From Candidatus Saccharimonadota bacterium (GTDB lineage Bacteria > Patescibacteriota > Gracilibacteria > BD1-5 > UBA6164), in assembly GCA_004563595.2 (NCBI GenBank), contig CP042461.1, forward strand, positions 180,001-212,000: 32,000 nt of DNA, read 5' to 3'. Below, piece by piece: positions 756 to 29,336 of the stretch; position 1 is the first letter of the stretch; every line of letters starts with the position of its first letter. The position numbers and the translations under genes are program-made. The notes below the pieces were generated by a model, which ran no database searches, was not told the origin of the DNA, and worked only from the letters and a program-made list of their open reading frames with translations.

Positions 756-792
756 AGAAGTAATAGCATTACGCTATTACTTCTTTTTTTTG
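756..792. terminator. hairpin terminator between convergent genes; overlaps the 3' end of the minus-strand membrane gene
   Basis: 12 bp perfect stem agaagtaatagc / gctattacttct (756-767, 773-784), loop attac, then a T8 run 785-792. An A-run sits on the other side. Confidence 0.5.
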
Positions 793-1389
793 AACAATTT
801 TAGCAATACCAATATATACCACTAAGATTGTCATTAATGCGAATAAATATATGATAAACGCTGAGCCTACAAATGAATGTTCTTCAATAGCAAGCAGGGC
901 TAAGAGACCTCCAACTGACCAAGAAAGCCATGGAATTATACTTTCCCCTTGTGGATTTTTATATATTTCTCGTAATAGTGGAGTAAATACTATAAAATCA
1001 ACAGAAATAAGAACTATACTAAGAGTTTTTTCTACCCAAGGGATATTTCCATATATTGAACCTTCTATGATAAGATAGCTTATAAATAGATTTATTGCCA
1101 TTAATGAACATACTTTATCAAATCTTCCTATATCTGTTAATTTGGAGCCATTTTTCATCATTAGTAATGCAATAATTAATGGACCCGTAAATAACATGAT
1201 TCCTTGAAATAATTCAATACGATCTGTTTCAGAAAAGACTTTACTCAGCATTACTATGAATCCTATAAGAGTCCAAAGAAGCCAAGTTACTAAATTGATA
1301 TTTTCTGCATCATTTTTGAGTGCTTGATAGTATTTATAGAATCCAAATGCTGTAAAAGCAAGAGACGCTAAAAACAGATAATCATTCAT
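769..1389 (-). CDS. integral membrane protein, 206 aa, multi-pass, family not recognised
   Basis: Intact ORF even under the standard code. Hydrophobic segments throughout (LASLAFTAFGF, WLLWTLIGFIVML, LFTGPLIIALLMM, VGGLLALLAI, FIIYLFALMTILVVYIGI). All 13 Gly are GGN with no TGA (see findings). Confidence 0.75.
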   Translation of the reverse strand: MNDYLFLASLAFTAFGFYKYYQALKNDAENINLVTWLLWTLIGFIVMLSKVFSETDRIELFQGIMLFTGPLIIALLMMKNGSKLTDIGRFDKVCSLMAINLFISYLIIEGSIYGNIPWVEKTLSIVLISVDFIVFTPLLREIYKNPQGESIIPWLSWSVGGLLALLAIEEHSFVGSAFIIYLFALMTILVVYIGIAKIVQKKEVIA

Positions 1390-5013: not shown

Positions 5014-7863
5014 TTATTTTATAGGGGTTAAAAAGTTTCAAAGTTCTGAATAATGAAAAATAAAATCAATTATTTTAATATCATTCACGTTAAAATCTAT
5101 AATTTGTCCTTTTTGCATAGTTATTCATATATGTTTGTCACCATAGTTCGTTTTAAATTCAATGGTTTCATTTTCAGGTTTGTAGCTAATGCTTATTTCT
5201 TCCTTACCAAGTGTATTACTAGTGGTATTGATAATATGCTCGATTGCTTCAATATTGTTTAAGATGCTTGATAATGTTTCTTTCAGTGACTCAAGAGGGA
5301 CATCTCATACAATGTATACAGAATTTCATGAAAGTAAATATGTATTTTGTTCTTTTGCCTTTAGATCTAATAGTTTAAAATCTATATCTGAGAAACTATG
5401 AGAAGATGCATATGTATAATCAGAATTGAGGACTCAGCTATATTTTATGGTTTTTCAATTTTTATTAATGTTCATTCAAAACTGAACTCAAGATATATAA
5501 ATATCATAATCAGTACTATTACTTTCCTGAGTCATACGAATATTATTGTATATAATAGAGAAGTAATCATCTATTTTTGTAAAATCTCAGTTGGTTCAGA
5601 GTAACTTGTTTCTTTTAAAATATTTTGTAAATTTATCCTCCGTTCATATATCGGGTTCATTACTACCTCCTATTATGGGCTGCGGTTGTTTCTTAGATTC
5701 TATAATAAAATTATTGAGAAAAAACTTTTTAAAGTCATATTTATCTTTTTCAGAACTCTGAGCTGCTTTGTATTTTTCTTCTAGGGACTCTTTCATATCA
5801 TTCAGATCATAAGATCATTTTTTTTCTTCCCATTCACCTTTTTCATTGATAAATGTAATGGTATTTATTTTATTTCAGTCATATGGATGAAGGAGAAAAG
5901 AAAATGTTTCCTTTCCTATATTTAAATTATTTATTTTATAACATTCATATTCTCAAAAAATATTTCAGGTTGTATCTTCAGTTTCTTCAATCTCAGGATT
6001 TTGACAGTAGTTATAATTTTTTAATTCAATATGTGTATTCATAAGTAAAAGTCATTGGAAGTTTGAGAGAAAAATGAGCGCTTTATCTTTACTGAGTTTT
6101 TCTGCATCAGTTTTCCCATTATCTAGAATAGGGTCGTTCCCTCCAAACCTAGAATCGTATTTTATAGTATATGCCTTATAGTCACTGAGAGCTAGGAAAT
6201 ATTCATCAAATATTTTTTGCAATTCTATATATTCATTTCTGAGAGTTTTTTCGTTATTTTTTTCAGGATCGAGAATATTTTTATTGGTATTATAAAAGGA
6301 TATAAGTTTTATAATATTTTTTTCTAACAGTATATAGTTCTCGTAAGTATTGTTTTGTAAACTTACAGTTTTTAATAATCATTCCTTGGTTCTTTCCTTT
6401 TCAAAGAAATTGTTTCTTATTATATACGTGAAGTTTCGTAAAATTTTAGAATTGATAAGAAGTCAAGTATGTAAAATAGTAAGGTTATTTGTATCATAAT
6501 AGGTTTCGCTAATGTTTACATAATTGTTAAAGAAAAGTATGAGTTCCTTTGCATTTGTATCTTTTAAGTCAGTTATAAGGATTTGTTCCAAGAAGAAGAG
6601 AAGAGAACTATTTGGTTTCTTATTTTCATCTTCATCATACTTTTTTATAAATGTATTGAGCTGGCTATATAAGTTATTTGATTGCTTAAAGTCATATGAC
6701 AAGAAAGTATTTTTGAGAGAGAGGATAGAAGGAGATATTGAGGATGCTTTTTTCTTGTTTAATTGTAAATATAAATGAGAAAAATTTAGGAGATGAGTGT
6801 TATCTTCATTTGTTGTGAATAATACATTTTTATAATAAAAATATATTATTCACAACATTTTTTTATATTCAGCTGTATTATTTTTTTTCAGATCGTTCAT
6901 AGTCTCTGAAATAAAATTGATAGATTCATTTACTTCTTCTTTTTTGTTTATAATTTCATGTAAGCTTTTGAGTATAAGGTTTTCATTATATATTTGTTTT
7001 TTTTCATTATTTAAAAATAATTCATAATATTTTTTTATAAATATTTCTCCTGGAAATGGTGAAAAAATAGCATCAGATAAATATTGTATTTCTTGAGAAC
7101 TTTTTTGGTATTCCAGTAATATATAATGAAAAGTGTCTTTTAAAAAATTATACTCAACCTCGTTAGAAGAAAATGATTGAAGAAAAAGAGGGTTTATATT
7201 GTTTTCTCATGTAATAAGAGGTTCATTAAAATATGTCAGAGGGAAGCTTTGAGAGATTTTGAATAAGTCAGCATTTAGTAAAAATCTATTCCATTTTGGT
7301 TTAATAGTAATATATGTATGAGGGTACAAATCAAGAGATGAAGCTGGAGTATTTGTTTCTGTATTGATAAGTGAAAGTTGTAATTTTGTGTTGATTGAAA
7401 AAATAACAACTTTTTTTGGGTTGAATGAATTCACAAGGAAGATTCATGGTCATGAGTTTTTTATCTGGAATCAACCTCAAGAAATTATGTATTTTTTGTG
7501 TAATTCATTCAAGTGGAGTAAATAGATTCCAGATTTTAATTTTAAATGAGTTATAGCTCAAGTTAATGTTTTTGTATAATCTCAACTGGAGTATATAGTA
7601 TCTGCGAGTGAAAGCTTCTCTGCAAGAATATTTATATTTTTTGATGAAGTTGTAATTTTTTTTAAAGATCAAGTTTGATCTAGAACTTGAAGGTCATAGA
7701 GTCATATCTCTATATCTTGTGAACTTATTTCTTCAATTTTAGAATAGTCTGAGGAAATAAAGCTCAGAGATATAAGACCTGATCAGAGGATGATAACAAT
7801 AATTACAAATATGATTTTTGATAAAAAATTCACTGCTTGATATATTAAAATGTAATAGTACAT
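5014..7863 (-). CDS. large hypothetical protein, 949 aa, N-terminal TM anchor, Asn/Lys/Ile-rich, no recognisable domain
   Basis: A single frame is open from ATG 7863 to TAA 5014 once TGA is read as Gly. Track fragments 6463..6702(-) and 7207..7434(-) are in this same frame. The N-terminus is MYYYILIYQAVNFLSKIIFVIIVIILGSGLISL. Confidence 0.75.
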
Positions 7864-10279: not shown

Positions 10280-10380
10280 AAATACAAGAGTTATTTTCTT
10301 GATTTTTGGCTTATTTTTCAGTATATATAATATACGAAATATAGTTTTGGAATGTTTTAATTGTGTTACTTGGAAAAAAT
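10280..10380 (+). promoter_or_regulatory. upstream element of pilin gene 1; partial copy of the element upstream of pilin genes 3 and 4
   Basis: It shares aaatacaaga ... tttttcagtatat with 14145-14238 and 16531-16636. Exact -35/-10 elements not resolved. Confidence 0.35.
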
Positions 10381-12552
10381 ATGAAAAAAATAATAAAAAA
10401 TAGTTTTTGATTCACGCTTGTAGAATTAATAGTAGTAATTACAATAATTGCGATTTTATGAACAATAGCATTTATATCACTACAGTGATATAGTAAAAAC
10501 GCAAGAGATTCTGTGAGAATCGCAGATGTACAATCTTTGGTAAAAAGTTTAAGTCTATTTGAGATAAAAACTTGAATTTTTCCTGAACCATCAAACTGAA
10601 CTTCTGTAAGTTTTTCGTGATGAGAAATATGGACACAATGAACTATTTGAGATAGTGTAATAGTCAATATTGGTCAATTAAGTAAAAAAGTGCTTGATCC
10701 ATCAACGGAATCTGAATATACATACTCAAGGTTGAACACAAAGAAGGAATACCAAATTGCAGCAGTGATTGAAGGTGATCTATGAATAAACTCATCACCT
10801 CATTTTTCTTCAGTAACTCATGCTGCATGAACAAATCCTTGAATTGCTTATGTGAAATGAAACTATAATTGAATGTTAGCAAAAGTTCAAACATGAGCAG
10901 TAACATATGTGTTAGCTGTTCCAACTATTATATCATGAGATATATCAGTTACTGATATTATTAATTTACAGCAATCAAATAAGCTTGTTTATAATGGAAA
11001 AAATAACCTTCCAGCAAGTTATGAGTCTTCTAAGTTTAAAGTCGATGGGGGATGATTTGTTTTTAATCCTTCAGATATAGTAGTCTATATTTGATCTACA
11101 AGTACTCTAACAGCAGTTGATAATCAACTCAGTTTAATGAGTAATACTCAAAATGTATATAGCGGAACTGACGTGTCAGGCTTAGATAGTCAGATTGATA
11201 AACTCGTTGATATAAGTGTTGATCTGAATAGTCCTACAGATGAAGCAAAAGAGTTTGCGGGTTATATAGTTAAAAATAGTGTAAACCCTGGGGTTGAAAT
11301 AAATATTAGTACTTCTTCTCAAGAATCTGTTATATGTTGAGGATGAGACTATAATAGTGCATATAATGTAAATTTATGATACTTTAATGGAAGAACTATT
11401 CCAAATAGAGCAGCGTTTGTCGCATTAAAACCAGATGGTTCTATTGTTGCTTGGTGAGATGATTCGTATGGATGATCATGAGCACTTGCACCAAGTGGTA
11501 GTGGTTATGAAAAAATATATTCATCTGAAAAAGCATTTGCAGCCTTGAAATCAGATGGAACAATTTCTGTATGGTGAGATGCTGATAATGGTTGAACCGG
11601 AGGTCCGATTGATAACTGATATGTAGATATCTCTTCAACATTAAATGCCTTTGCCGCGTTAAAAGATGATGGAACAATTTCTGTATGGTGACCGTCTTGA
11701 ACGAGTGCTTGAGATCAAGCAAATGCTCCAAGTACATGAGATTATACGAAAATATATGCAGGTAAATATACGTTTTCAGCCTTAAAAGATGATGGGACTG
11801 TATACGCATGGTGAAGTTACGTTACAAATTGACCAGTAGCCGGAGTTTGATATACTTCCATTTCTGCTAGTCAATCAGCCTTTGCAGGATTACATGAAGA
11901 TGGGAGTATATCAACGTGGTGAGAAGGAGGCTATGGTTGAATTTGATGACCTATAGATAATTGATATATATCAATAGCTTCAACACAGAGAGCATTTGCT
12001 GCTTTAAAATCTGATGGGAGCTTATCAGCTTGGTGAGCTGATTCATATGGATGAACAGGAACTTTGGTTGGTCCATTTACTTCTGTTTCTGCAACAGAAA
12101 ATGCATTTGCTGCATTGAAAACAGATGGAAGTATTGAAACATGGTGAGGAAGTGGGAACTGATGAACTGGAGGACCGGTATGAACATGATATACAAAAAT
12201 ATATGCAAATAATTATGGTTTTGCTGCCTTAAAAAATGATGGAACTATATATGCATGGTGAAGTAGTAGTTATGGATGAATATGAGATGTAGCATGAACA
12301 TGATATGTTAAAATATTTGGGAATAATTATGGTTTTGTTGCATTAAGGTCTGATGGAACTGTATATGGATGGGGAAGTGGAGGAAGCGGATATCCTGTAG
12401 ACAGCTGATACATAAATATCATGGCTACAGCAAATGCTTTTGCTGCAATAAAGGATGATGGAAGTATGAGCTTATGGGGATCTCAATATTATTGAGCAAC
12501 AGGAGGGCCCAATGATTCATGATATACCTCACTTAACTGAACGTGCAAGTAA
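10381..12552 (+). CDS. type IV pilin-like protein (A-type N-module) with C-terminal 10-repeat RCC1-like beta-propeller, 723 aa
   Basis: N-terminus MKKIIKNSFG|FTLVELIVVITIIAILGTIAFISLQGYSKNARDS is a prepilin cleavage/methylation motif. The C-terminus has 10 repeats of AFAALKxDGSIxxWG. Track ORF 11137..11340(+) is in frame. Length is a multiple of 3 from ATG to TAA. Confidence 0.88.
11410..12549 (+). repeat. 10 tandem coding repeats of about 38 aa (consensus GY..I.S...AFAALK.DGSI..WG....GG.G)
   Basis: The periodic gcatttgc(t/a)gc..taaaa..gatgg....tggtga is visible directly in the nucleotides. The WG dipeptide is mostly TGG-TGA. Confidence 0.85.
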
Positions 12553-12582: not shown

Positions 12583-14145
12583 ATGAAAAAAATAATAAAA
12601 AATAGACTTTGATTTACATTAGTAGAACTTATTGTTGTTATTACCATTTTAGCAATTCTTGGTACTATTGCATTTATAAGTTTGCAATGATATAGTAAGG
12701 ATGCAAGAGATAGTAAAAGAATAAGCGACATAGCTAATATTGAAATATCTTTAGAGTTATTTTCGCTTGCAACATGAAAATATCCACTTCCGGATAATCC
12801 ACAAACTGTTATATATAGTTGATCTATAGTATTATGGAATCAATGAACTGTTTGATGAAATGTAGCAACAAACTTGTCAAAAAATTTGTCAGAAATACCA
12901 TTAGATCCATTATATGGAACTGAGTATGTATATTCAACACTTGAAAATAGAAAAGAATATGAATTAATGAGTGTATATGAGTGAGGTAATATAGGAGGAA
13001 ACTGATTATTAGATAACACGTATGCAGCTACGAGTCCAACAGTAAAAATAGTTGGTACTTATAATGGGCTTTTTATTCATACTTCAAATTATATAATACC
13101 ATCTCCAAGTATTATAACATCAGAAACACTCCCACTTGCGTTTGATGCACAGTCAATACAGTCACAAGTGGTAACAGGATGAACGAATGTACCAAATATA
13201 TGAACAAGCAAAGTACAAGTATCAACAGGGGCATTATCAAATATTACACTGTCAGCTTATATATGAAGTGCAGATGCAAACTCATATAAATATGAATTAT
13301 TATCTCTATATAAAACAATACAATGAGCGTATACAGGTTCAAGTTTAATAGGAAATTGAATATATAAAGCGTTGTTTGATCAAACAAGCAATGATGAAAA
13401 GGTAGTTTTTATAGATTCAGTGTTAAATATTACCAGAAGCTCACCAATAAATATAATTACATGGTCAGAGTTAGACTTAAATTGTGATGCAGATGATATC
13501 CCTATTTGAGATCAAGTATGGGCATGATGTAATTCTACATTATGACTCTGATTAGAATGGGGGCAACTCGACTGAGATTTATGAACAAATAATTATAATT
13601 GAGGATGAAGTTTTTGTTTTAATTATGAATGAGGTGCAGCGACATGTATTAAATGAGATATAACAATGGCATCAAATACAAAAGCAAATACTTGGTATAC
13701 TGGAACAAATTCAAACTGAGATACTGAGTTTGCGAGTATATGGTGAAAATCTTATACATGGGAAAATTCAGGTAGCGCATGTGCTCCGGGCTTTCATGTC
13801 CCAACAGATGCTGAACTAGAAATTCTTGAAACAACACTAAAATGAGGAGTTAATTGTAGAAATTCAACAAATTGAGAATTGTGTGCTTGATTAGGGTGGG
13901 CATGACATAACGCTCAATCTACAACTAATAACATGGCTCAAGCCCTTAAAATTCCTTTATCAGTTAATCGTCTTACGAACTTAATTGATTCTTACAATAG
14001 AGGAAATTATGCACATCTATGGTCCTCAACTGAAGGCTCTAGTGGTACTGCGTATGGGAGATCGCTAAAATGGGATACTACGACAATTAACCGTCTCAAT
14101 TGGAGTACAGATTATGCTTTTAATGTCCGTTGTATACATGATTAA
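12583..14145 (+). CDS. type IV pilin-like protein (B-type N-module) with C-terminal FISUMP (Fibrobacter succinogenes major paralogous) domain, 520 aa
   Basis: N-terminus MKKIIKNRLG|FTLVELIVVITILAILGTIAFISLQGYSKDARDS. The C-terminus reads IGDQVWAGCNS..YTWENSGSACAPGFHVPTDAELEILE..HLWSSTE..AFNVRCIHD*, the TIGR02145-type pattern. I checked every codon and found no in-frame TAA/TAG. It lies 30 nt after gene 1, so it is probably co-transcribed. Confidence 0.85.
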
Positions 14146-14238
14146 AATACAAGATATATCTTCTCTTTTCAGTATATTTCATTTACTTAGTATGTAAAAA
14201 ATAATATTATTTAGTTTATTATAATTCCCTCTCATCTT
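14145..14238 (+). promoter_or_regulatory. conserved upstream element of pilin gene 3
   Basis: Near-identical to 16531-16636: aaatacaagatatatc...ttttcagtatat..catttac.tagtatgtaaaaaa.aatattatttagtttattataa. Confidence 0.4.
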
Positions 14239-16440
14239 ATGAAAAAATTAAAGAAAAACAGATTTTGATTCACCCTTGTAGAATTAATAGTAGTGATTAC
14301 TATCCTTGCTATCTTGTGAACTATCGCATTTATATCACTTCAATGATATAGTAAAAGTGCAAGAGATTCTGTAAGAATATCAGACGTTGAAAATATAGTA
14401 ACAAGTTTGACTCTTTATGAAGTACAAAAATGAGCGTTCCCTGTTCCATCAGATAATGTTGAAGTAACTTATTTGGGATGAGAAGTATGGACTCAATGAA
14501 CTATTGGAGACAGTGTACTTACGAACCTTGCTCAAATAAGTAATAAAATAGTAGATCCTTCAAGTGGATCAGAATATACTTATTCTAGATTGAATACAAA
14601 AAAAGAATACCAGGTAGCTGCGGTATTTGAGTGATGACTTGCTTTTGAAAGTGATAATAACATTCTTTCTTCAGCTCACGCAGCGTGAAATGTAGCATGA
14701 ACAGCGTACGTAAAATGAAACTATAATGGGATGTTAGCAAAAGTAAGTACATGATGAACATTGTATACTCTTGCTGTTCCGACTTTAATATCATGAGATA
14801 TAACAGTGACAAGTCTTACTGCATTACAAGCTGCAAATAAACTTGTGTACAAAGGTACTGCTAATTTGCCGGCAAGTTACGAATCTTCTAATTTTAGAGT
14901 TGAGGGAGGAGGTTTTGTATTTAATCCATCAGATATAGTAGTGTATACATGATCAATGAATACTCTATCAGATATTACAAACAGAGTTCAGTTAGTTGAG
15001 AGCTTACAAAATGTGTATGACGGTACAGATTTAGCAACCTTAAATCCAGATATTCAGACACTTGTGGACACAATAATTAATCCAGGATATGCTTCAGCAG
15101 AAGCAGAATTATTATCGAGTAATATAATTAAAAATAGTATTAATCCTAGTATAAATGTAAGCATAGCATCTGAAGCAACTTTTAGATGTGATGGAGGTGA
15201 TTATAATACAGCATATAATAATTATTGATGATATTATAGTGCATATACTATGCCTAATACAGGAGCTTTTGCAGCACTTAAAAGTGATGGTACTATATTT
15301 GCATGGTGAGATTCAAGTAAATGATGAACATGAGCACCGGTTGACGATTGATATAAAAAAATAGCATCTTCAGCTGAGTCTTTTGCAGCCTTAAAAGATG
15401 ATGGAAGCATTACTGTATGGTGAAATGGAGGTGCTGGATCATGAGCTTTGGCTCCTAGTGAGAGTTGATTCATCAAAATATCTTCAACATCAAACTCTTT
15501 TGCCGCATTAAAGGAAGATGGGACAATTTTTGTATGGTGATTACCATGAGCAAGTGCTGGAGATCAAGCAGAGGCTCCAACCGGTAGTGATTACAAGAAT
15601 ATATATGCGGCAAATTATACTTTTTCAGCTTTAAATAACGATGGAACAGTATATTCATGGTGAAGTTATGTTACTAATGGTCCTGTAGCTGGAGTATGAT
15701 ATACTTCTATATCTTCTAGCTCATCAGCATTTGCTTGATTAAAAAGTGATGGGACTATATTTGCATGGTGAGATGGAGGATATTGATGAATTTGAAATGT
15801 TACATGAACATGATATGTTTCAATTTCTTCAACTACGAGAGCATTTGCAGCCTTAAAAGATGATGGATCAATTTTTACATGGTGAGATGGAAGCTATTGA
15901 TGAACATGAAGTACTTCATGAGCTATATCAGGGACATGATATACTAAAATATTCTCTACACAGTGAGCATTTGCAGCTCTAAAGGATGATGGAAGTATTA
16001 CTGCGTGGTGAACAAGTGGATGGTGATGAGATAATACAGAAGTTCCAAGTTGAACATGATATATAAATATTTATTCGAATTCAAGCGCATTTGCAGCATT
16101 ACATGGTGATAATGAAACTATCTATGGTTGGGGCTTTGCTAGTACAGGGGGAGTATGAGCTGTCGCGGGGAGTTGATATACTAATGTTTATGCTGCTCAT
16201 TATTGATTTGCGGCATTAAAACCTGATGGAACCATAAAAGTATGGTGAAATATGGATTCAAATAAACCATCAGAATCAGAAACATGATTTACAAAAATAA
16301 TGTCAACAGAGAAAGCATTTGTGGCAATGAAGTCTGATGGAAGTATTTATGCTTGGTGAAATAGTGCAGATGGAGGTGATAATAATGATGCACCAAATGA
16401 TATATGATATGTGTCTATTAATTGAGTTTGTAACCAATAG
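14239..16440 (+). CDS. type IV pilin-like protein (A-type N-module) with C-terminal 10-repeat beta-propeller, 733 aa
   Basis: N-terminus MKKLKKNRFG|FTLVELIVVITILAILGTIAFISLQGYSKSARDS, followed by 10 AFAALKxDGSIxxWG repeats. Track ORF 14956..15228(+) is in frame. Confidence 0.88.
15265..16437 (+). repeat. 10 tandem coding repeats of about 38-42 aa (propeller blades) in pilin gene 3
   Basis: Same consensus as 11410-12549. Confidence 0.85.
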
Positions 16441-16530: not shown

Positions 16531-16636
16531 AAATACAAGATATATCTTTTTGCTTTTATTGTCTATTTTCAGTATATTCCATTTACCTAGTATGTAAAAA
16601 ACAATATTATTTAGTTTATTATAACCTCTTCCTGTT
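16531..16636 (+). promoter_or_regulatory. conserved upstream element of pilin gene 4
   Basis: Copy of 14145-14238 with a short insertion. It follows the terminator, so gene 4 is probably its own transcription unit. Confidence 0.4.
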
Positions 16637-18811
16637 ATGAAAAAGTTAATGAAAAGAAGTTTTTGATTCACACTTGTAGAATTAATAGTAGTGATTACTA
16701 TTCTTGCTATCTTGTGAACTATAGCATTTATATCACTACAATGATATAGTAAAAATGCAAGAGATTCTGCCAGAATATCGGATATAGAAAATATCGTAAC
16801 TAGTTTCACTCTTTATGAAGTACAGAGATGATCTTTTCCCGTTCCATCAGATGGAGTAGAAATAACTTATTTAGGATGATCAGTATGGACTCAATGAACT
16901 ATTTGAGAAAGTGTTATTACCAATCTTTCTCAAATGAGTAAAAAACCAATAGATCCATTCAGTTCTTCTGAATATACCTATTCAAGACTCAATAGTAAAA
17001 AAGAATATCAAATTGCAGCAGTGTTAGAGTGATGACTTGCTTTTGAGAGTAATAATACTTTTTCTTCAGCACACGCTGCATGAAACTTAGCATGAACAGC
17101 ATATGTAAAATGAAACTATAACGGGATGTTAGCAAAGGTAAATACATGATGAATATTGTATACACTTGCTGTTCCAACTTTAATATCATGAGATATAACA
17201 GTGACAAGTCTTACTGCACTACAAGCTGCAAATAAACTTGTATATAAAGGTGCTGCTAACTTACCAGCAAGTTATGAATCATCAAACTTCAAAGTTGATG
17301 GAGGAGGGTTTGTGTTTAATCCATCAGATATTGTAGTATATACATGATCAATGGGTACATTATCTGATATTACAAATAGAGTTCAATTAGTTGAGGCTTT
17401 AAAAAATGTTTATATAGATACTGACGCCTCGGATTTAAGTCCAGATATTCAAACGCTTACTAGTACAGCTATTAATTCAGAATATGCTACGTCTGAGGCT
17501 GAATTATTAGCAAGTAATATAATTAAAAATAGTATCAACCCTAGTATTGATGTAACTATCGTATCAGAAACAAAATTTTTATGTAACGGAGCTGACCATA
17601 GTACAGCTTATAATGCAAATGGATGATTTTTTAACGTTTCAAATTTCCCGAACACGCAAGCATTTGCTGCTCTAAAGAACGATGGAAGTATCTCTGTTTG
17701 GTGAGATGATTCTTATGGTTGATCATGAGCACTTGCACCAAGTGATAACTGATATATAAAAGTAACTTCGAATGAGACAGCATTTGCTGCTTTAAAGGGA
17801 GATGGGACAATTACTGTATGGTGAAATGCAACGAATGGGTGATCTGGAGGTCCAAGTGGGGGCTGATTTGTAGATGTGTTTTCTTCAAGTGCAGCTTTTG
17901 CAGCTTTAAAAGATGATTGATCGATACAAGTATGGTGAGATGCTGGGCCATGAGTTCAAGAAGTAGCTTTGAGTGATACTGAATATACAAAAATATATTC
18001 ATCTAATTATTCATTTGCTGCTTTAAAAGAAGATGGGACTATATATGCATGGTGAAGTTATCCTGGAATTTGAGATGTTCCTGGGGTATCATATCTATCT
18101 GTTTCTGCAACTACCTCAGCTTTTGCTGGATTAAAATCGGATGGAAGTATTTATTCGTGGGGACTTTCTGGTCACTGATGATCATGAGCACCAGCAGCTA
18201 CTTGATATACATCAATTTCAGCGACTGAAAGAGCTTTTGCAGCATTAAATAGTGATGGAAGTATTTTTGTTTGGTGAGATGATAGTTATTGATGAACATG
18301 AGCTATAGACCCAAGTTGATATACAAATGTATATGCTAATTTTAGAGCTTTTGCGGCAACAAAAACGGATGGAAGTATTACCGTATGGTGAAGTAGTAGT
18401 AATTGATGAAGTTTAGGGTTCTCGGGTACGTGAACAATTAAAATTGCATCAAATCGTTATGCATTTGCTGCTCTAAACAGTAATGGAACTATATATTCTT
18501 GGTGAGCTTGAGGTAATGGATGAATTTGAAGTGTAACGGGAACATGATATGTAGATATATATTCTAGTGATAATGGATTTGCGGCTATGAAATCTGATGG
18601 GAGCATATATAGTTGGTGATGATCATCTTCATCTTGATACCCAGTTGATAGTTGATATACAAAGATATTTTCTACTGCATGAGCTTTTGCTGCAATGAAG
18701 TCAGATGGAAGTATAACAGCTTGGTGATCAAGTTGGTATTGAGGAACATGAGCTGAATGAATTCCCATAGATGATTGATACGTCTCAATTAATTGAGTAT
18801 GTCTTAATTAG
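16637..18811 (+). CDS. type IV pilin-like protein (A-type N-module) with C-terminal 10-repeat beta-propeller, 724 aa
   Basis: N-terminus MKKLMKRSFG|FTLVELIVVITILAILGTIAFISLQGYSKNARDS, followed by 10 repeats. Track ORF 17351..17626(+) is in frame. Confidence 0.88.
17660..18808 (+). repeat. 10 tandem coding repeats (propeller blades) in pilin gene 4
   Basis: Same consensus as 11410-12549. Confidence 0.85.
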
Positions 18812-19570: not shown

Positions 19571-22500
19571 ATGTTGAGAAAAGTTCTATTGAGCATATTG
19601 ATCGGTACTATCTTATTAAATTGAGGGCCTATTGTAAATGCGGCATGAGATGAGCCAAGTTATACAAAACTAACTGTGTTAGATTTACATACCTTCAATG
19701 AATATAGGTATAGAATTACTGATAAGTACTTTAATCTCAGAAACAAGTTTGAGATTGATGGAACTATAAATAGTAAAATTTCTGGAGAGATATTAGACCT
19801 TGCAAGGGAAGGGTACAACTATCTTCCGGATAATTTATCGAATAAAAACTTATATAATAAATTAAAAACATCTATAGAGAGAGGGAAAAAATTTCCAGAT
19901 AATGAATCAAATTATACAGCAATCGTTGTGGCTATTCAAAGCTATTTAGAAAAGGCAGATATTCAAAAAATTCAATGAAAAATTGAAACAGTAACAAAAG
20001 AATGAAATGCCCCTTTTTCTGCTACGTTAAGATGAAGAGTGAGTGATCCATCGGGAACAAAAATAGAGTCATATAACTACGTATGGTGGATTGATGTAGC
20101 ATGAAAGAGAAAAATTATATGAAAAAAGCCATCTATTAACTATATTTTTAAGGAAGAATGAAATTTTTCTGTATTTTTAGATGTTATTTCTAGTCACAAA
20201 AATACAAAATGATACACAGATGTGCTTCCTTTTAGATCAAGAGCTGATATTAAAGTAAAAGAAAAAATTGCATCAGTTATTATCAAAGTTAACTCTGATC
20301 GTTTAAGGCAAAAAGATGAATTAAAATTTACTCCAGACGAAGCAAGGTTTGGTTTACTTTTTGATGCTACCAGTTCAACCCCAGCGTCAGGAGGGAAATT
20401 TACAAATACATCATGGGATTTTTGAAATGGTTTGGAAAGGGAAAATTCATGAGATCCAAAAGTAGAAAGAGTTATATATGCAAAAGAGGGAGAATACACC
20501 GTTATATTGAAACTAAGAACAAATGAGAATAGAACTGCAGAGAGAAAGTTTATAGTTTCTATTCATGATCCTATTGCAACTATTAAAAGTTCTCAAGAAG
20601 ATTGATTCTTATGAGATAAGTTTACTTTTTCTGCAAAACCTTCATGAAATGATGATGATTTGAGCTACTCTTGGGAGATAGTTGATATAGAAAATGATAG
20701 TATTATTTTTAGAAAAACAGGGAGTTTATTTACCTATAGTTTTAAGGATAAGTGAAAATATAATGTTAAACTTAGAGTAACTGAGCCTTCGTGAGAAGAG
20801 GATATTGATACACAGATTATACATATTAATTCTCAAGCCCCGGTTGCTGATTTTAAAAATTCAAAACCATTTCCACATAAACCAAATACAGTTTTACTTG
20901 ATGCAACAAAGAGTTATGATCCAGATTTTTCTGATGATTGAAAGTTACAATTCTCATGGATTATTAATGGAGAAAGAAGAGTTTTAGATAGGCCAAACTT
21001 TAATGGTTCTATCTGATATTATACGTTTGATTCTATATGAGATCAAAGTGTTGTATTAGAGGTAGTTGATCCAGATAAAATACCATCTCAAAAAACAGAA
21101 AAAGTAAGGGTAGATTCTATTTTATCTGTTGATTTATTTGCTTTTCCAAGAGTAACTACTAGGGAAAATACTATTAGATTCGTTGCTCAATCCCCAGAAG
21201 CAAGATTTTATGAATGGGATTTTGGAGATGGAGAAAAAAAATGATCAAAGGAAGCAGAAATATCACACAAATATAAAAAAAGTTGAGTATTTACTGTAAA
21301 AATAAAGGTAATTGATAAAGAGGATAGAGAAAATACATTTCAAAAAAATGTATATATTTGAGAATCAAATAGTCCATTTGCATTTATAAATATTCAAAAC
21401 TGAGTGAGTCAGGAAGTGGCATATAAGCAGTGAGTATGTAATGGTGTATGAGCATATATTGTTGATAGAGTAAACATCACGAGGTTTTCGTGAGAAGAGA
21501 GTATTGATATTACTGGAAAAACTTCATGAATTTCATATTCGTGGAAGCTGTGAAGAGATCAGTATTTTTCATCAAGAGATTTTCCTCAAAAATTTGATGA
21601 ACTTGGTTGTGTTCCGTTGAAATTAACTGTAAAAAGTGATCAAAACTGAAGAACTCATAGTAGAACTGTATGGCTAAAAGTTGAAAATATCAAACCAACG
21701 TTATCATCCGTGAATGTACAAATTACAGATGAATCTACAGATCCTGTGATTGTAAAAGTAAGTGCTTTATGATCAAAAGATCTTGATGGAGTGATTCAAT
21801 CATACTTATGGTATTATTATACAGATATTGATTCTGAACCACAAGATTTTAGAGCAACTAAATCTTCAGCGACTACCTTTGTTTTACCAAAAATAACATG
21901 AAACTATTATTTTGTAGTGGTTATGAAAGATAATAATGAAGCAAGAGTCACCTCAGAAGAAGTAACGGGGTCAAAATATTTTGTAACACTTGCCTGAGAT
22001 AATATAAATACTCCTCTAGTAAAGTTAAGTGTGAATGACTCTTCTGTATCTATTTGAGATGAAGTCGTATTTACAGCAAAAGTTGAGAATATCCTCGGTC
22101 ATGATTTATCAAAAAAAGTAGAATATTCTTGGGACTTGGATGGAGATGGGTTTTATGAAAAAAAAGGTTCTCAAGCTACGATAACTCATAAATTTGAAAT
22201 CTCTTGAGAGTTACATCCAAAAGTAAAAGTAAAATACAAAGGCTTTAGTAGTACAAAAAATCTTACTGTAAATGTATCAAATATATTGAAACCAGATTTT
22301 TGATACATTTCAATTTGAAATAAATTCATTATTTTTGATAAGAGTATTTGAAAATATGATACAATTCAATGGAACTTAGGTGATGAAACAAAAGTTACAG
22401 ATAAGAATGTTTTCACTCATACATATGATGATGGGAAAGCATCTCATATGGTAGAATTAAAAATATCTGATGGGACAAAAGTAAAAACTATACAAATAAA

Positions 22501-25054
22501 AGTAACAAAAAATGTAAAGAATATTATTGAAGCAAAAAAGAAAGGACTTGTTTTATTCTCAAGCTCAGATATTTCTTCTGATGATGAACTTATATTAAAA
22601 AAAGCATCAGAAAAAGTATTTATATATTTAGGAGAGAGTAACCCTGATATATCAAACTATATTGCCGACTTTGATATTGAAAATGACTCAGACTTGAATT
22701 GAGGGAAAGATGATGATGAAGATAACAAGTCAGATGCAAGTTTTCGTTCATGAGACGCAGTTGAGATAAAATTAAATACAAATAAGCATCAAAAAGTTAG
22801 ATTGACTATAAAAGATAATTCATGATCTCTCGTAGAGAGTTATGACTTTATGATTGTGAAAGAATATATTGTAGAAGAAGAGATAGACCTGAGTAGTTTG
22901 AGTTTTGATTGAGTAACTGATGCAGAGTTATTAAAAATAGAAAAATTAAAGAGTTATATTTCTGATTTACCAAAGGGTGATAAACTAAAGGCATTAATGT
23001 ATGTTCAAAAACTTCAGGAAGAGTGGTTTGATGATACTGAAAAAACAAGAGTTATTCTTGAATTTGAATGATATATTTATGAAATAGATGCAAATAATGC
23101 AGAAGAAATAGTAAATGTTCTAGAGTCATTATTAATAGAGTGAGAAGAAGATAGAAGTGAAAGAAATATAACTTTTAATGCATTGAAGAACCTAATCCCT
23201 ACAAATATAAAATGTGGTGACCTAGGTGAAGCAACACCTGAAACTGATTCTAATACATGTTACACAGGATTAATAGAAAAATTAGAAACTATAAAAATAA
23301 ACAATAATATTGATGAGAATAGAGAGATAGCAAAAGGTATACTGAATGTTATCTGAGAAGATACAAGCATGACAGCAAAACAAAAAACTGATTTTAAGGC
23401 AATTTTAACAACGCTTGTATATGGCTGAGTTGATAATATTCCTGAACCAGTAAAGCAGGTTATTCAAGGTCCATGAGATGAAGAATGAAGTGATCTACTA
23501 TGATTATTAAAGTGGATACTTTTAGTTATTCTGTATATTATACTCGGGTTTATATGAATAATATTTGCATATTGGGTATACTATAAACTTATAAATAAAG
23601 ATGATAATGTATGATTTCAAGACTTTATTATAGAGAAAACTTCTTGAAAAAAAATACAAGATCCAGAACCTATGGATGATTCTTTAGATATTTTAAGTGA
23701 TCTATCAACTGATAAAGCGTGAGATGAAGCAGAGGAGTGAATGAAATGATCTGAAGAGGAATGAGAAGAAGAACAAATATGAGTTTCTCAGGTGGAAACG
23801 AAACCTACAGAAGCGAAAATAGTGGAACATAAACAAGAACAAAAAGTAGAAGCTCCAAAATGAGATGTTCCTGATTGGTTAAAAGGGAGTGTTTCTGATG
23901 ATGATTTTAAAAAAGAAGTAACTCAAATGAAAACGAAGATTACAGAAACAAAGTGAGTAGAACAAAAACAAGACCAAAAAATAGAAGTTACAAAGTGAGG
24001 TGTTCCTGATTGGTTAAAGTGAAGTTTTACTGAAGATGATACAATAAAGGATATAAAGAAAAAAGATGAAATTATTAAAACTGATGAGAAAATAAAAACA
24101 ACTCAAGTGGAAACCAAGGTTGTAGAAACAAAATCAGTGGAGCAAAAGCAAGAACAAAAAGTGGAACCTGCAAAATGAGATGTTCCTGATTGGTTAAGAG
24201 GTAGTTTTACTGAAGATGATAAAAGTAAGGATATAAAGAAAAAAAATATTAATAAAGGGAACCAACCAAAAAACAGAGAAGAAAATAAAGGTGAAAAGAC
24301 TATAGTTACTCCTAAAAAGGAGAATGTTTGAACTGATGAAAAGTTAAAAATTTTATCTAATGATGATTTAGATAAAATAACAAAAATAGATGAAGATGAT
24401 AATATTCCTGATTGGTTAAAGGGGAGTTTTGATGAAGAGAAGAAACAAAATGAAATACCTGCTGTAGATAAGAAACAAGAAAAAATAACTGTTGTAAGTA
24501 AAGAAATAGAGAGGAAACCAGAGAAGAAAGTAGATGTAAAAGAAAAAACTTTAAAGAAAGAAGAAAAGAAAGAGCTGAAAAAAGATGAACTTAAAAAAGA
24601 TATACCTAAGAAAACTGAGCAAAAAAAATCTGGTACACCACAAATCACAGTAAAAAAAGATATAACAAAATGAGTAGAAGAGAAAGGAAACATTAAGTCT
24701 GAAAAAGCAGTGATAGCACAGAGTAAAACAATTGTAAAAAAAGAAGAGACAGTGAAAAAAACTCAAATGACAAAAAATATAAAAGAAGAAGCCCTACAGG
24801 AAAAAAGTATAAAAGAAGTGAAACCTAAACCTAAACAGGAGAAAGTTAAGGAGGAAAAATCGAAACTAACTCCAGAAAAAAAAGGAGAAGCGAAACCAGA
24901 ACAAACGACTCCAGTGCTTAAAAAAGAGGAAGAAAAAAAGACAGAAACTAAAAAAGAACTTCTGAATAAAAAAGGTACAGAAAAGAAAAATGGTGAGTTA
25001 TGGGATGATGGTATGAAGATACCAGATTGGTTAAAAACAGAAGATGATAAATAA
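19571..25054 (+). CDS. giant surface protein, 1827 aa: signal peptide, about 8 PKD/Ig-like repeats, one TM helix, Lys/Glu-rich C-terminal tail with PDWLK motifs
   Basis: Signal peptide: MLRKVLLSILIGTILLNGGPIVNAA. PKD-type signatures: WDFGNG, YSWEIVD, FSWIING, YEWDFGDGE, YSWKLG, YSWDLDGDG, IQWNLGDE. The TM helix LLGLLKWILLVILYIILGFIGIIFAYWVYY lies at about 23497-23595. Track ORFs 19676, 20222, 22448 and 24710 (+) are all in this frame. Length is a multiple of 3. Confidence 0.85.
23861..24440 (+). repeat. coding repeats carrying the (G)DVPDWLKGSFxEDD motif; four copies here and a fifth at 25015-25054
   Basis: The string tgagatgttcctgattggttaa recurs at about 23861 and 24176. Variant copies lie at about 23996 and 24411. 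The first three share a preceding VEQKQ(E/D)QK(V/I)E segment. Confidence 0.8.
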
Positions 25055-25082
25055 AAAAAGCCTCAATTTTGAGGCTTTTTTT
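25054..25082. terminator. bidirectional terminator between the PKD gene and the inverted pilin gene
   Basis: aaaaaagcctc-aatttt-gaggctttttt. Confidence 0.7.
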
Positions 25083-25084
25083 AT

Positions 25085-26647
25085 TTATCTAATGTATAAA
25101 GATATTCTTTCTCATGCATAATTCCATACTGGAGATGTATCATTAAAATTAGCGTATAAATTTAAGGTGACATAATCATAATCATAAGCATTTCCATGAT
25201 TATAATATCAAGACCTTCCATTTCAAAATAATTTTTCCTTTGGTATAGAATTTCCAACATTATCTCAAGCTGAAGTCCAATTACTCATGTAATTTATTCA
25301 ATAAAAGTCCCAGTCATCAGATCAAGTAGGAGTATTGTCTCTATTCTCTTGCCAGAGTCAATGGTCATTATACCATCAAGCATCTCTATATATATTGATC
25401 CATTCATATTTTGAATTTATATTTGTAACATCTATTAATCAAGGGGTATATTGAACTCCATTCTCTTGAGCTTGTAGGAGTACATTTGATCAAATTATTA
25501 ATAATAATTCTTTAGTTCCGTCCGTGTAGTCTGTAATAGCTTTTGTGAAATCTGAATCTAAATCAAATCAGCTTCATGTATTACTAGAAATATCTAAAGT
25601 ACCTATTATATTTGTGGAATTATTTCAAATTAATTCCCACCCTCCTCAATTTGTAGTCATATTACAGTATACGCTAAATCAAGTTCAATTATCTTGTGGA
25701 TCAACTGTATATGTTCCATCTCAAGTTGAATCTCAATTGTTTAATATATCTTTACAACTTCATGGAAGTGTTTCTATGACTATCTCATTTGTATTACTTG
25801 GGGTACTATTATTCACTACAACCGAACCAGCAAATGCTATTTTTTCATCATCTGTAGTTTGAGCTAATAGTGTTTTGTAGATTCATTTATTTGCTAAGCT
25901 TGAACCTGTATAAGCTCACTTTAATACTTCATATACAGCCAACTTTTCTACTGTAGATGAGTCTCCATCGATAGATCAATTATATACAGATAATGATAAA
26001 CTGGATAATGCTCCTGTTGATACTGAAATTTTTGCAATTCACATATTTGGAATATTCGTTCCACCATTGGTTACTTGTGATTGTATAGAGTCTGAATCAA
26101 GCACTCATGGTAATGTATCTGCTGTTATAATACTGGGTGTTGGGATTATATAATTGGCTGTTTTGATGAAAAGTCAGTTATATGTTCCATCCATTCTTAC
26201 AGTTGTATTTGTTGCTGCATAGGTGGTATTTAATAGTCCATTACTTGATACATTACTTCATTCATATAAACTCATAAGCTCATATTCTTTTTTATTTTCA
26301 AGAGTAGAATATACATATTCTGTTCCATAGAGTGGATCAGTTGGTATTTTTGATAAATTCCTTGATAGGTTGGTTATAACTTGATTTCAGATCGTTCATT
26401 GATTCCATAGTGTAGATCAACTATATGTAACGTCTTGTGAATTATCTGGAAGTGGATATTTTCATGTTGCCAGAGAGAAAAGCTCCAGTGATATCTTGAT
26501 GTTATTTATATCACTTACTCTCGTACTATCTCTTGCATCTTCAGAGTATCATTGAAGACTTATAAAAGCTATGGTTCATAAAATAGCTAATATTGTAATT
26601 ACTACTATTAACTCAACCAGTGTAAAAGCTTGTTTGTGTGTGTTCAT
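25085..26647 (-). CDS. type IV pilin-like protein (B-type N-module) with C-terminal fibrinogen-like YCxxxxxGGGW domain, 520 aa
   Basis: The minus-strand translation starts MNTHKQA|FTLVELIVVITILAILGTIAFISLQGYSEDARDS. The first 270 aa or so are clearly paralogous to 12583-14145. They are followed by SCKDILNNGDSTGDGTYTVDPQDNGTGFSVYCNMTTNGGGWELI. Length is a multiple of 3. Confidence 0.85.
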
Positions 26648-29294: not shown

Positions 29295-29336
29295 ACGATA
29301 AAGAATATGATGATTTATTTGTATAAAAATAAAATT

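What the first reader, a model, noticed from the sequence alone, without database searches (positions are those of the whole stretch)
12583..14145. Domain swap on a shared B-type pilin module: FISUMP head here, fibrinogen-like head on the inverted paralogue 25085-26647
The 12583-14145 (+) and 25085-26647 (-) proteins are both exactly 520 aa. Over the first 270 aa or so, roughly two thirds of residues are identical by eye. Examples are SLELFSLATGKYPLPDN, DPLYGTEYVYSTLEN.KEYELMS, GTYNGLFI.T.NYIIP.PSIIT, SIQSQV..GGTN.PN.G and GAYTGSSL.N.GIYK.L. After that they switch to unrelated C-terminal domains.

This one ends in the FISUMP/TIGR02145 pattern: IGDQVWAGCNS ... CAPGFHVPTDAELEILE ... HLWSSTE ... 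VRCIHD.

The two copies are in inverted orientation and flank about 11 kb holding two further pilin genes, ssb and the PKD protein. The B-type and A-type modules differ after the shared prepilin helix, so the locus encodes at least two shaft types and three head types.
Basis: partly seen in the sequence, partly recalled or inferred. Interest (0 to 1): 0.7.

Follow-up and report, generated by a model that had tools for sequence, protein, structure and literature searches.

The report
Modular pilins with swapped adhesin heads
Two genes in a Gracilibacteria genome (where TGA encodes glycine) encode type IV pilins that share one ~280-residue carrier but end in unrelated binding domains; this is a real but already catalogued kind of modular pilin, and nothing suggests the pair works as an inversion switch.

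Summary
Genes 12583-14145(+) and 25085-26647(-) both encode 520-aa proteins. They are 69% identical over residues 1-280 and 68% over 36-280, so the similarity extends well beyond the helix. Beyond residue 300 identity is about 22%.

Protein A passes the curated FISUMP cut-offs. Protein B passes the bacterial GGGW fibrinogen-like cut-off, but only about 46 residues match.

The shared shaft is a large Gracilibacteria pilin family. It ends in a conserved D-x-V-L-N motif followed by a Ser/Thr/Asn-rich linker. Among 48 head-bearing relatives I found 23 unrelated head clusters. Head type is scattered on the shaft tree, and neighbouring paralogues in other genomes show the same pattern.

- The RCC1-bearing pilins share 39-45% identity with A over 200-320 residues, so they do not differ right after the helix.
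- The inverted copies are only 71% identical in DNA, with synonymous sites near saturation and no recombinase found, so an inversion switch is unlikely.

Raynaud et al. 2021 already list pilin-FISUMP, pilin-fibrinogen and pilin-RCC1 architectures. Verdict: a new member of a known kind, and a clear local example of a lineage-wide head-shuffling pattern.

The parts
12583..14145 (+). Gene A: 520-aa modular type IV pilin (carrier shaft + linker + FISUMP head), code 25, 30 TGA=Gly codons, TAA stop
   Evidence: The library protein P0131 equals A except for G->W at exactly the 30 TGA positions.
12583..12612 (+). Class III (prepilin) leader MKKIIKNRLG; Gly -1 is encoded by TGA at 12610-12612; cleavage is expected before Phe11
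   Evidence: Sequence; TIGR02532 24.8 bits (cut-off 16.3); PF07963 29.8 bits (cut-off 21.2).
12613..13428 (+). Shared carrier shaft, aa 11-282: hydrophobic alpha-1 helix (FTLVELIVV..., Glu at +5), GspG-like pilin core (aa 36-141), a beta extension and a C-terminal helical bundle, ending in the conserved D-S-V-L-N motif
   Evidence: PF08334 24.6 bits (cut-off 21); 68-69% identity to B; AlphaFold models of homologues P0005 and P0017 give shaft pLDDT ~85-97; junction alignment.
13429..13479 (+). Variable Ser/Thr/Asn-rich linker, about aa 283-299; the recurrent breakpoint between shaft and head
   Evidence: Junction alignment. Sister pairs elsewhere lose similarity after 282-298 aligned residues.
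13480..14142 (+). FISUMP (TIGR02145 / PF09603) head, aa 300-520, 8 cysteines; the HMM match covers aa 358-520 (nt 13654-14142)
   Evidence: An exhaustive HMMER search with the head-only homologue P0121 gave 4,867 relatives; 47 of the best 150 carry this shaft.
25085..26647 (-). Gene B: 520-aa paralogous modular pilin (same shaft, fibrinogen-like GGGW head), 32 TGA=Gly codons; leader MNTHKQA with Ala at -1
25811..26626 (-). Shaft of B, aa 8-279; the inverted-repeat partner of A's shaft (arms 71-76% complementary)
   Evidence: Inverted repeats I1 and I2.
25088..25759 (-). Head of B, aa 297-520. Only aa 297-342 (nt 25622-25759) match the fibrinogen/intelectin YCDxxxxGGGW subdomain; the remaining ~180 aa have no detectable relatives.
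   Evidence: NF040941 60.2 bits and PF00147 32.8 bits; PDB sequence hits to FIBCD1, intelectin-1 and fibrinogen beta cover the first ~50 aa only; head-only search found nothing.
10381..12552 (+). R1: 724-aa modular pilin with an RCC1-repeat (beta-propeller-like) head. It ends 30 nt before gene A, so the two are probably co-transcribed.
   Evidence: PF13540 112.8 bits and PF07963; 42.6% identity to A over 272 aligned positions; upstream sequence.
14239..16440 (+). R2: 733-aa RCC1-head pilin
   Evidence: 59% identical to R1 and 66% to R3 over the full length.
16637..18811 (+). R3: 724-aa RCC1-head pilin
   Evidence: Its upstream box is 91% identical to that of R2 (repeat family D16).
25046..25089 (.). 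20-bp-stem hairpin between the convergent PKD gene and gene B; a likely bidirectional terminator

Best explanation
Gene A encodes a modular type IV pilin of a Gracilibacteria-type (code 25) bacterium. It has four parts: a short prepilin leader; a ~270-residue carrier ('shaft') made of the polymerisation helix, a GspG-like pilin core, a beta extension and a helical bundle; a flexible Ser/Thr/Asn-rich linker; and a cysteine-rich extracellular FISUMP domain as the ligand-binding head.

The proposed mechanism is as follows. The prepilin peptidase cleaves the leader. The shaft then inserts into the organism's type IV pilus, at the tip or interspersed along it. The head is displayed on the filament, where it binds a surface ligand on a host cell or substrate.

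Gene B is an old paralogue with the same shaft and a different, fibrinogen/intelectin-like head. R1-R3 are more distant paralogues with RCC1-repeat heads. Together they give the cell a repertoire of pilus-borne adhesins.

The 'swap' is an evolutionary event: recombination in the linker after the conserved D-x-V-L-N motif. It has happened many times across the lineage. It is not a programmed rearrangement.

What is shown: gene structure, the genetic code, domain identities, the junction position, the family-wide shuffling of heads, and the old age of the duplication. What is inferred: processing of the leader, assembly into pili, position in the filament, and the adhesin function with its ligands.
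For: Genetic code.

Pilin features: N_methyl and T2SSG HMMs are above their cut-offs, and the G|FTLVE cleavage motif is present. The alpha-1 region matches GspG and pilin structures in the PDB by sequence. AlphaFold models of two homologues give a confident long N-terminal helix plus beta-sheet.

Heads: FISUMP and GGGW HMM scores are above curated cut-offs.

Family-wide shuffling:
- The shaft has 1,809 relatives, named Gracilibacteria where a name exists.
- Of 76 complete-shaft hits, 28 are headless and 48 head-bearing tails fall into 23 BLAST clusters. Profile-profile comparison merges none of them.
- Head types are scattered on the shaft tree.
- Sister shafts that are 68-88% identical over 282-298 aligned residues carry unrelated heads.
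- Adjacent paralogues in other genomes have 65-80% identical shafts and unrelated tails.
- A's head is 41-55% identical to heads that sit on shafts only 35-57% identical to A's, whereas B's shaft is 70% identical.

Junction: a conserved junction motif followed by a variable linker.

Literature: modular pilins function as tip-exposed adhesins (S. sanguinis PilB), and pilin-IPR011871, pilin-IPR002181 and pilin-PF13540 architectures are catalogued (PMC8179133). FISUMP is described as extracytoplasmic and attachment-related, and as a C-type-lectin-class ligand binder (PMC4704652; PMC5758913). Gracilibacteria express type IV pili (PMC11452946).
Against: No pilus assembly genes (PilB/C/D/M/N/O) lie in the window, so assembly is assumed from the literature on the lineage.

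The head folds could not be modelled: pLDDT was below 50. Foldseek gave no significant PDB match even for the confident shafts.

A 520-aa subunit is bulky for a filament, and there is no evidence on whether it sits at the tip or along the body.

The shaft tree is a neighbour-joining tree without bootstrap support. Most database sequences are mistranslated, with W at TGA positions, which blurs identities by a few points.

No expression data were examined.
Confidence: 0.7

Rival explanations
1. Programmed inversion switch. Recombination between the inverted A and B shaft copies flips the 12-kb segment. This exchanges which promoter and 5' shaft drives the FISUMP head and which drives the fibrinogen-like head, giving phase or antigenic variation in the manner of a shufflon.
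For: The two shafts are inverted repeats of about 810 nt flanking the segment. The geometry would produce in-frame chimeric genes. Gene A appears co-transcribed with R1, while B has its own upstream region.
Against: The arms are only 71-76% identical, and the longest exact run is 23 nt. Synonymous codon identity is 58% against 46% expected, and only 20-40% in the helix that is 100% identical at protein level, so there has been no recent exchange. No recombinase/invertase domain was found among the window ORFs scanned, and there are no short conserved boundary repeats. In other genomes the same shaft/head pairs are tandem direct repeats, where recombination would delete rather than invert.
Confidence: 0.03
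2. The proteins are type II secretion pseudopilins (GspG/GspH-like) that belong to a secretion piston rather than a surface pilus.
For: The best NCBIfam hit is TIGR01710 GspG (48.7 bits), and many database relatives are named 'type II secretion system protein'.
Against: The TIGR01710 score is far below its cut-off of 88.85 bits. Pseudopilins do not carry 230-460-residue C-terminal binding domains. From general knowledge, not tested here, candidate phyla radiation (CPR) bacteria lack the outer membrane that a type II secretion system spans. The 'T2SS' names are generic automatic annotation.
Confidence: 0.04
3. The head-bearing proteins are major subunits, so every subunit along the filament carries a head and the pilus is densely decorated.
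For: All five pilin genes in the window carry heads, and no small pilin lies in the window. The shaft is shared with 28 headless family members that could co-polymerise. The linker is long enough to let a head project sideways.
Against: By analogy with S. sanguinis PilB, modular pilins are modelled at the tip and are low-abundance (PMC8179133). Five different bulky heads in one filament body would be sterically demanding. Headless family members are the more natural candidates for the major pilin. Nothing here tests stoichiometry.
Confidence: 0.13
4. The prepilin-type N-terminus serves only as a membrane anchor or export signal. The proteins would then be cell-surface adhesins or binding proteins that are not polymerised into pili, like the class III signal-peptide sugar-binding proteins of Sulfolobus (recalled from memory).
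For: Nothing in the window shows assembly into a filament. The proteins are large, and a signal peptidase I gene and a giant PKD surface protein sit next to them.
Against: The conserved ~270-residue shaft has a complete pilin core under strong purifying selection across 1,809 relatives. That is hard to explain if only the first ~30 residues matter. The Glu at +5 and the alpha-1 helix are strictly conserved.
Confidence: 0.1

Closest known systems
Modular type IV pilins, e.g. Streptococcus sanguinis PilB (pilin + vWA) and PilC (pilin + lectin); Raynaud et al. 2021, PMC8179133
   Same: An N-terminal pilin module is joined by a short linker to a C-terminal non-pilus binding module. Their InterPro survey lists IPR012902-IPR011871 (40 proteins, 5th most frequent), IPR012902-IPR002181 (8 proteins) and PF13540 combinations. 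From memory, IPR011871 is FISUMP and IPR002181 is the fibrinogen C-terminal domain. A Gracilibacteria protein is among their 15 representative proteins.
   Different: The carrier here is about 270 residues (pilin core plus beta extension plus helical bundle), not a small pilin module. It is one conserved lineage-specific family with a fixed D-x-V-L-N junction, recruiting at least 23 head clusters, often in tandem arrays of 2-5 genes. No function has been tested for these proteins.
FISUMP / TIGR02145 / PF09603 proteins of Fibrobacter and Bacteroidota
   Same: The HMM score is above the cut-off, the domain is cysteine-rich, and an extracytoplasmic location is inferred.
   Different: The classical members are lipoproteins or giant multi-copy proteins (8 lipobox and many 1,000-7,786-aa proteins among the relatives). 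Here the domain is a single C-terminal copy on a pilin, with a ~40-residue insertion after the IGDQVW motif.
Fibrinogen-related domains and X-type lectins (FIBCD1, ficolins, intelectins)
   Same: B's head starts with the C...YCxMxTxGGGW subdomain; the best PDB sequence hits are FIBCD1 (E = 7e-7) and intelectin-1 (E = 4e-6).
   Different: Only ~50 residues align. The ligand-binding P subdomain and the Ca2+ site are not detectable, and the rest of the head varies even among GGGW-head pilins.
Pilin C-terminal switching systems (R64 shufflon PilV; from memory)
   Same: A constant pilin N-terminal part is combined with alternative C-terminal adhesin parts, and inverted repeats are present.
   Different: There is no recombinase and no short sfx-like repeats. 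Each head is attached to its own complete, separately diverged shaft gene.

Membership tests
Type IV pilin (class III signal peptide protein) | Short basic leader, Gly/Ala at -1, Phe at +1, Glu at +5, and about 20 hydrophobic residues | tested here: met
   A has MKKIIKNRLG|FTLVELIVVITILAIL and B has MNTHKQA|FTLVEL. TIGR02532 scores 24.8 and 25.0 bits (cut-off 16.3); PF07963 scores 29.8 and 29.7 bits (cut-off 21.2).
Type IV pilin (class III signal peptide protein) | Long alpha-1 helix packed on an antiparallel beta-sheet globular domain | tested here: inconclusive
   PF08334 T2SSG scores 24.6 bits (cut-off 21). Models of homologues show a helix then a beta-sheet with pLDDT 85-97. Foldseek against the PDB gave no significant match; the best was C. 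difficile PilA1 at E = 0.65. The window's own proteins could not be submitted for modelling.
Type IV pilin (class III signal peptide protein) | Prepilin peptidase and pilus assembly machinery present in the genome; incorporation into filaments | not testable with these tools
   None of these genes is in the 32-kb window, and the rest of the 493-kb source contig could not be reached. The literature reports type IV pili expressed in Gracilibacteria.
Modular pilin (sensu Raynaud et al. 2021) | An N-terminal IPR012902 pilin module plus an additional domain not specific to pilus biology, joined by a linker | tested here: met
   The architecture is listed in their Dataset S1.
Modular pilin (sensu Raynaud et al. 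2021) | The extra module has a direct role in a pilus-mediated function such as adhesion | not testable with these tools
   This needs binding assays or genetics.
FISUMP domain (TIGR02145 / PF09603) | Score at or above the curated cut-off | tested here: met
   TIGR02145 44.8 bits against 41.65; PF09603 51.1 bits against 33.9.
FISUMP domain (TIGR02145 / PF09603) | C-type-lectin-class fold, as assumed in the diversity-generating retroelement (DGR) literature | tested here: inconclusive
   The head of the surrogate model has pLDDT 26-59, and the head has no PDB sequence relative.
GspG, T2SS major pseudopilin (TIGR01710) | Equivalog score at or above 88.85 bits | tested here: not met
   48.7 bits for A and 46.1 bits for B.
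Fibrinogen-related domain (PF00147) for paralogue B | A full ~220-residue domain with A, B and P subdomains | tested here: not met
   Only profile positions 4-48 of 221 align, and PDB hits cover ~50 residues. The short bacterial GGGW model NF040941 is met at 60.2 bits against 30.
Shufflon / invertible pilin switch | An adjacent site-specific recombinase and short conserved inverted repeats at the segment borders | tested here: not met
   No recombinase domain was found in the scanned ORFs. The only inverted repeats are the diverged shafts themselves.
DGR target protein | A template repeat matching the 3' end of the head gene, plus a reverse transcriptase gene | tested here: not met
   No second copy of either head's DNA exists in the window, and no YxDD-motif ORF was found.

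The most novel reading that the evidence does not exclude
Gracilibacteria may use one standardised ~270-residue carrier pilin, with a fixed D-x-V-L-N junction and linker, as a plug-in display platform. Binding heads would be exchanged between paralogues and between genomes, much as phages exchange receptor-binding proteins. Shafts would stay similar within a genome because they must fit the same filament. On this reading, the head repertoire (FISUMP, GGGW, RCC1, TLDc, Lcl_C and many unannotated types) would be a main determinant of which hosts or surfaces these episymbionts can attach to.
Probability: 0.3. Interest if true: 0.6.

Novelty: new member of a known kind. Interest (0 to 1): 0.35.

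Why it matters
Gracilibacteria and their relatives are uncultivated, host-dependent bacteria, and how they recognise partners is unknown. A family of pilus subunits with one conserved carrier and dozens of interchangeable binding heads is a concrete, testable candidate for the recognition machinery. It also gives a list of heads to express and screen against host surfaces.

There is a practical point too. Most database copies of these proteins are mistranslated, with Trp or a stop at every TGA. That hides the family from word-based searches and degrades structure prediction, and even this window's own protein A is stored that way.

The principle of modular pilins, and these particular domain combinations, have already been published.

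Tried and rejected
The surrogate homologues P0005 and P0017 gave confident shafts but unusable heads. Both PDB fold searches were non-significant.

2. Word-indexed homologue searches with the heads alone found 2 hits (FISUMP head) and 0 hits (fibrinogen-like head). This is probably due to high divergence and W/G mistranslation.

3. The first GTDB scan, with A-specific peptides, found nothing; the alignment-based retry worked. Both metagenome scans, by protein and by an exact 32-mer at the junction, found nothing. Strain-level head variation and inversion isomers therefore could not be examined.

Only the TGA-free gene at 769-1389 could be looked up. It identified the source contig but reaches only to window position ~11.4 kb.

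5. A diversity-generating retroelement (DGR) or silent-cassette explanation for head diversity is rejected: the window has no second copy of head DNA.

6. Recent gene conversion as the cause of shaft similarity is rejected, because synonymous sites are near saturation.

7. Merging head clusters by profile-profile comparison produced no merges at probability >= 90. The power is limited because the profiles are shallow.

8. A literature search for bacterial fibrinogen-like GGGW domains returned nothing relevant.
Full report
GENETIC CODE AND GENE MODELS

With the standard bacterial code the two reading frames named in the finding are interrupted by 30 and 32 stop codons. All of them are TGA, and both frames end in TAA. 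The window has 29.5% G+C, and almost every long ORF appears only when TGA is read through.

TGA encodes glycine here, not tryptophan. The evidence is:
- TGA occupies the Gly positions of the CxxCxGxG zinc-finger motifs of DnaJ and of the GDG thiamine-pyrophosphate motif of the 2-oxoacid:ferredoxin oxidoreductase beta subunit.
- In alignments of paralogues within the window, TGA faces Gly 53 times and Trp never.
- TGA is the commonest glycine codon: 450 TGA against 338 GGN.
- The Gly at position -1 of the prepilin cleavage site of four pilin genes is a TGA.

This is genetic code 25, used by Gracilibacteria and Absconditabacteria. All named relatives found later are Gracilibacteria or 'Patescibacteria' metagenome-assembled genomes. 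The source contig is JGI 3300030037, Ga0239576_1000025, 493 kb.

THE OBSERVATION

Read with code 25, genes 12583-14145(+) ('A') and 25085-26647(-) ('B') each encode 520 residues.

Identity between A and B:
- 193/280 (69%) over residues 1-280.
- 167/245 (68%) over residues 36-280, which excludes the hydrophobic helix.
- 25% over residues 281-300.
- 22% beyond residue 300, which is the noise level of a forced global alignment.

BLASTP aligns only residues 7-290 (68.7%, E = 2e-126) and finds nothing in the C-terminal halves.

Domain assignments:
- A scores 44.8 bits on TIGR02145 (cut-off 41.65) and 51.1 bits on PF09603 (cut-off 33.9).
- B scores 60.2 bits on NF040941, the bacterial YCDxxxxGGGW fibrinogen-like model (cut-off 30), and 32.8 bits on PF00147 (cut-off 22).
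- Both carry the N-terminal methylation motif and the T2SSG pilin-core domain above their cut-offs.

The two genes are in inverted orientation, 10.9 kb apart. Between them lie two RCC1-repeat pilins (R2, R3), ssb and an 1,827-residue PKD-domain protein. A third RCC1 pilin (R1) ends 30 nt upstream of A.

The identical length of 520 aa is coincidental: the leaders differ by three residues, and relatives range from about 260 to 590 residues.

ANATOMY OF PROTEIN A

- Residues 1-10 form a class III leader, MKKIIKNRLG, followed by FTLVELIVV... with Glu at +5.
- Residues 11-282 form the shared 'shaft'. AlphaFold models of two database homologues (P0005 and P0017, 46% and 43% identical to A and B) place three elements here with pLDDT mostly 85-97: a long N-terminal helix, a beta-sheet, and a C-terminal helical bundle.
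- The shaft ends in a conserved D-x-[IV]-V-L-[NG] motif, D278-S-V-L-N282 in A.
- A variable Ser/Thr/Asn-rich stretch of about 10-25 residues follows, and the head begins near its first cysteine.
- The FISUMP head spans residues ~300-520 and has eight cysteines, which fits an extracellular disulfide-bonded domain.

In B only the first ~46 residues of the head match anything. They resemble the N-terminal subdomain of fibrinogen-related domains and intelectins: FIBCD1 at E = 7e-7 and intelectin-1 at E = 4e-6. The remaining ~180 residues have no detectable relatives.

IS THE SWAP SPECIAL TO THIS LOCUS? NO.

The shaft alone retrieves 1,809 proteins. Among the 76 best hits with a complete shaft, 28 have no head. 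The other 48 have tails of at least 80 residues that fall into 23 BLAST clusters, and none of these merge in profile-profile comparison. Pfam recognises only a few of the heads: FISUMP, fibrinogen-like, TLDc, Lcl_C/DUF1566 and RCC1.

On a neighbour-joining tree of shafts, FISUMP heads appear in at least three places and GGGW heads in at least five. Close sister shafts carry unrelated heads, and similarity stops at the same place each time:
- P0047 / P0050: 87% over 282 aligned residues.
- P0009 / P0016: 88% over 296.
- P0041 / P0043: 77% over 292.
- P0058 / P0069: 74% over 292.
- P0007 / P0017: 68% over 298.

In GTDB genomes the family occurs in many Gracilibacteria, with several loci per genome and tandem arrays of up to five genes. 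Adjacent paralogues there have 65-80% identical shafts and unrelated tails.

After correcting for the W/G mistranslation of database entries, A's shaft is at most 57% identical to the shaft of any FISUMP-bearing relative, but 70% identical to B's shaft. A's head, by contrast, is 41-55% identical to heads that sit on shafts only 35-57% identical to A's. Head and shaft histories are therefore decoupled. The junction after the VLN motif is a recurrent recombination point on an evolutionary time scale.

An exhaustive HMMER search with a head-only FISUMP homologue found 4,867 relatives. Of the best 150, 47 cluster representatives carry this shaft, 8 have lipoprotein signals, and many are giant multi-FISUMP proteins. 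One of the hits, P0131, is protein A itself, stored with Trp at all 30 TGA positions.

First, the 'A-type' RCC1 pilins do not diverge from A and B right after the helix. They are 39-45% identical to A over 200-320 residues, so they share the whole pilin core. The locus holds two subtypes of one carrier family rather than two unrelated shafts.

Second, the inverted arrangement invites the idea of an invertible switch, but the sequence does not support one:
- The arms are 71-76% identical, with a longest exact run of 23 nt.
- Third codon positions are 58% identical.
- Among codon pairs that encode the same amino acid, 58% are identical against 46% expected from codon usage alone. In the helix that is 100% identical at protein level, only 20-40% of codons match.
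- The duplication is therefore old, and the similarity is kept by purifying selection, not by ongoing exchange.
- No recombinase domain, short boundary repeat, silent head cassette or diversity-generating retroelement (DGR) template repeat was found in the window.

I could not test inversion directly. Other assemblies of this region could not be reached.

MECHANISM

The best-supported reading is that A, B and R1-R3 are modular type IV pilins in the sense of Raynaud et al. 2021 (PMC8179133). In that model a pilin module carries the protein into the filament, and a grafted module is displayed for binding.

The FISUMP domain is described as extracytoplasmic and attachment-related in Fibrobacteres (PMC4704652). 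It is grouped with DUF1566 and DUF823 as C-type-lectin-class ligand-binding domains of surface proteins (PMC5758913). Fibrinogen-related and intelectin domains are glycan binders (general knowledge). Gracilibacteria are host-dependent and express type IV pili (PMC11452946). Their relative Vampirococcus has a rich pilus repertoire and PKD-bearing giant surface proteins thought to mediate host attachment (PMC8080830).

The likely function is therefore a repertoire of pilus-borne adhesins. Leader processing, assembly into pili, position in the filament and the ligands are all inferred, not shown.

Rivals are listed separately with their probabilities: an inversion switch, T2SS pseudopilins, heads on every major subunit, and surface anchoring without polymerisation.

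NOVELTY

Raynaud et al.'s Dataset S1 already lists IPR012902-IPR011871 (40 proteins, the fifth most frequent modular pilin architecture), IPR012902-IPR002181 (8 proteins) and several PF13540 combinations. A Gracilibacteria protein is one of their 15 representatives. That IPR011871 is the FISUMP entry and IPR002181 the fibrinogen C-terminal entry is from my own knowledge of InterPro.

The domain combinations are thus known. What this analysis adds:
- The carrier is a single large, lineage-specific ~270-residue module with a fixed junction.
- It has recruited at least 23 head clusters, most of them unannotated.
- Shafts are more alike within a genome than between genomes.
- Most public copies of these proteins are mistranslated.

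I rate this a new member of a known kind, of moderate interest.

LIMITS

- The shaft tree has no support values.
- The head clusters rest on shallow alignments of partly mistranslated sequences.
- The head folds are unresolved.
- The pilin fold of the shaft is supported by HMMs and model topology but not by a significant structural match.
- No expression or assembly data were available.

Noticed in passing
window 19571-25054 (+): An 1,827-aa surface protein with a signal peptide, at least 4 PKD domains and a predicted transmembrane segment near residue ~1290. Its long Lys/Glu-rich tail carries about 5 copies of a 'vPDWLKGSFxEDD' motif (DNA repeats at 23767-24460); the last copy sits at the very C-terminus (KIPDWLKTEDDK). 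The motif's function is unknown.
   Followed up: partly
window 12610-12612 and the equivalent codons of R1, R2 and R3; 26627-26629 in B: The Gly at -1 of the prepilin cleavage site is encoded by the reassigned TGA codon in A, R1, R2 and R3. B, like most family members (84 Ala against 30 Gly among database hits), has Ala at -1.
   Followed up: yes
window 14157-14224, 16557-16624 and 10315-10342: The regions upstream of R2 and R3 are 91% identical over 68 nt. They share a 'TTTTCAGTATAT' box with the region upstream of R1, which may be a common promoter or regulatory element. Gene A lacks the box and starts 30 nt after R1's stop codon.
   Followed up: partly
window 25046-25089: A perfect-looking 20-bp-stem hairpin lies between the convergent PKD gene and gene B and overlaps both stop codons. 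It is likely a bidirectional terminator.
   Followed up: no
database proteins P0002, P0005, P0017, P0131 and others: Most public relatives, including the stored copy of this window's protein A (P0131), are translated with code 4, so Trp sits at every TGA and makes up 7-9% of residues. This lowers apparent identities, breaks word-based searches, and probably degraded the head structure models.
   Followed up: yes
window 28761-29294 and 29307-29612 (+): An adjacent gene pair: a 177-aa HATPase_c-like protein with a weak hit to the N-terminus of DrmA in PADLOC, and a 101-aa STAS-like DUF4325 protein. Their function is unknown.
   Followed up: partly
window 5014-7863 (-): A 949-aa protein with an N-terminal hydrophobic segment and no Pfam match.
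   Followed up: no
loci L058, L067, L074, L077, L032 (GTDB Gracilibacteria genomes): Tandem arrays of 4-5 consecutive pilin genes that share only the first ~130-200 residues of the shaft (the pilin core) and carry different extensions. This suggests a second, more upstream shuffling boundary at the end of the pilin core.
   Followed up: no
window 769-1389 (-): The only gene in the window with no TGA codon at all: a 206-aa multi-pass membrane protein with no Pfam hit. It has 13 Gly residues, all encoded by GGN.
   Followed up: no
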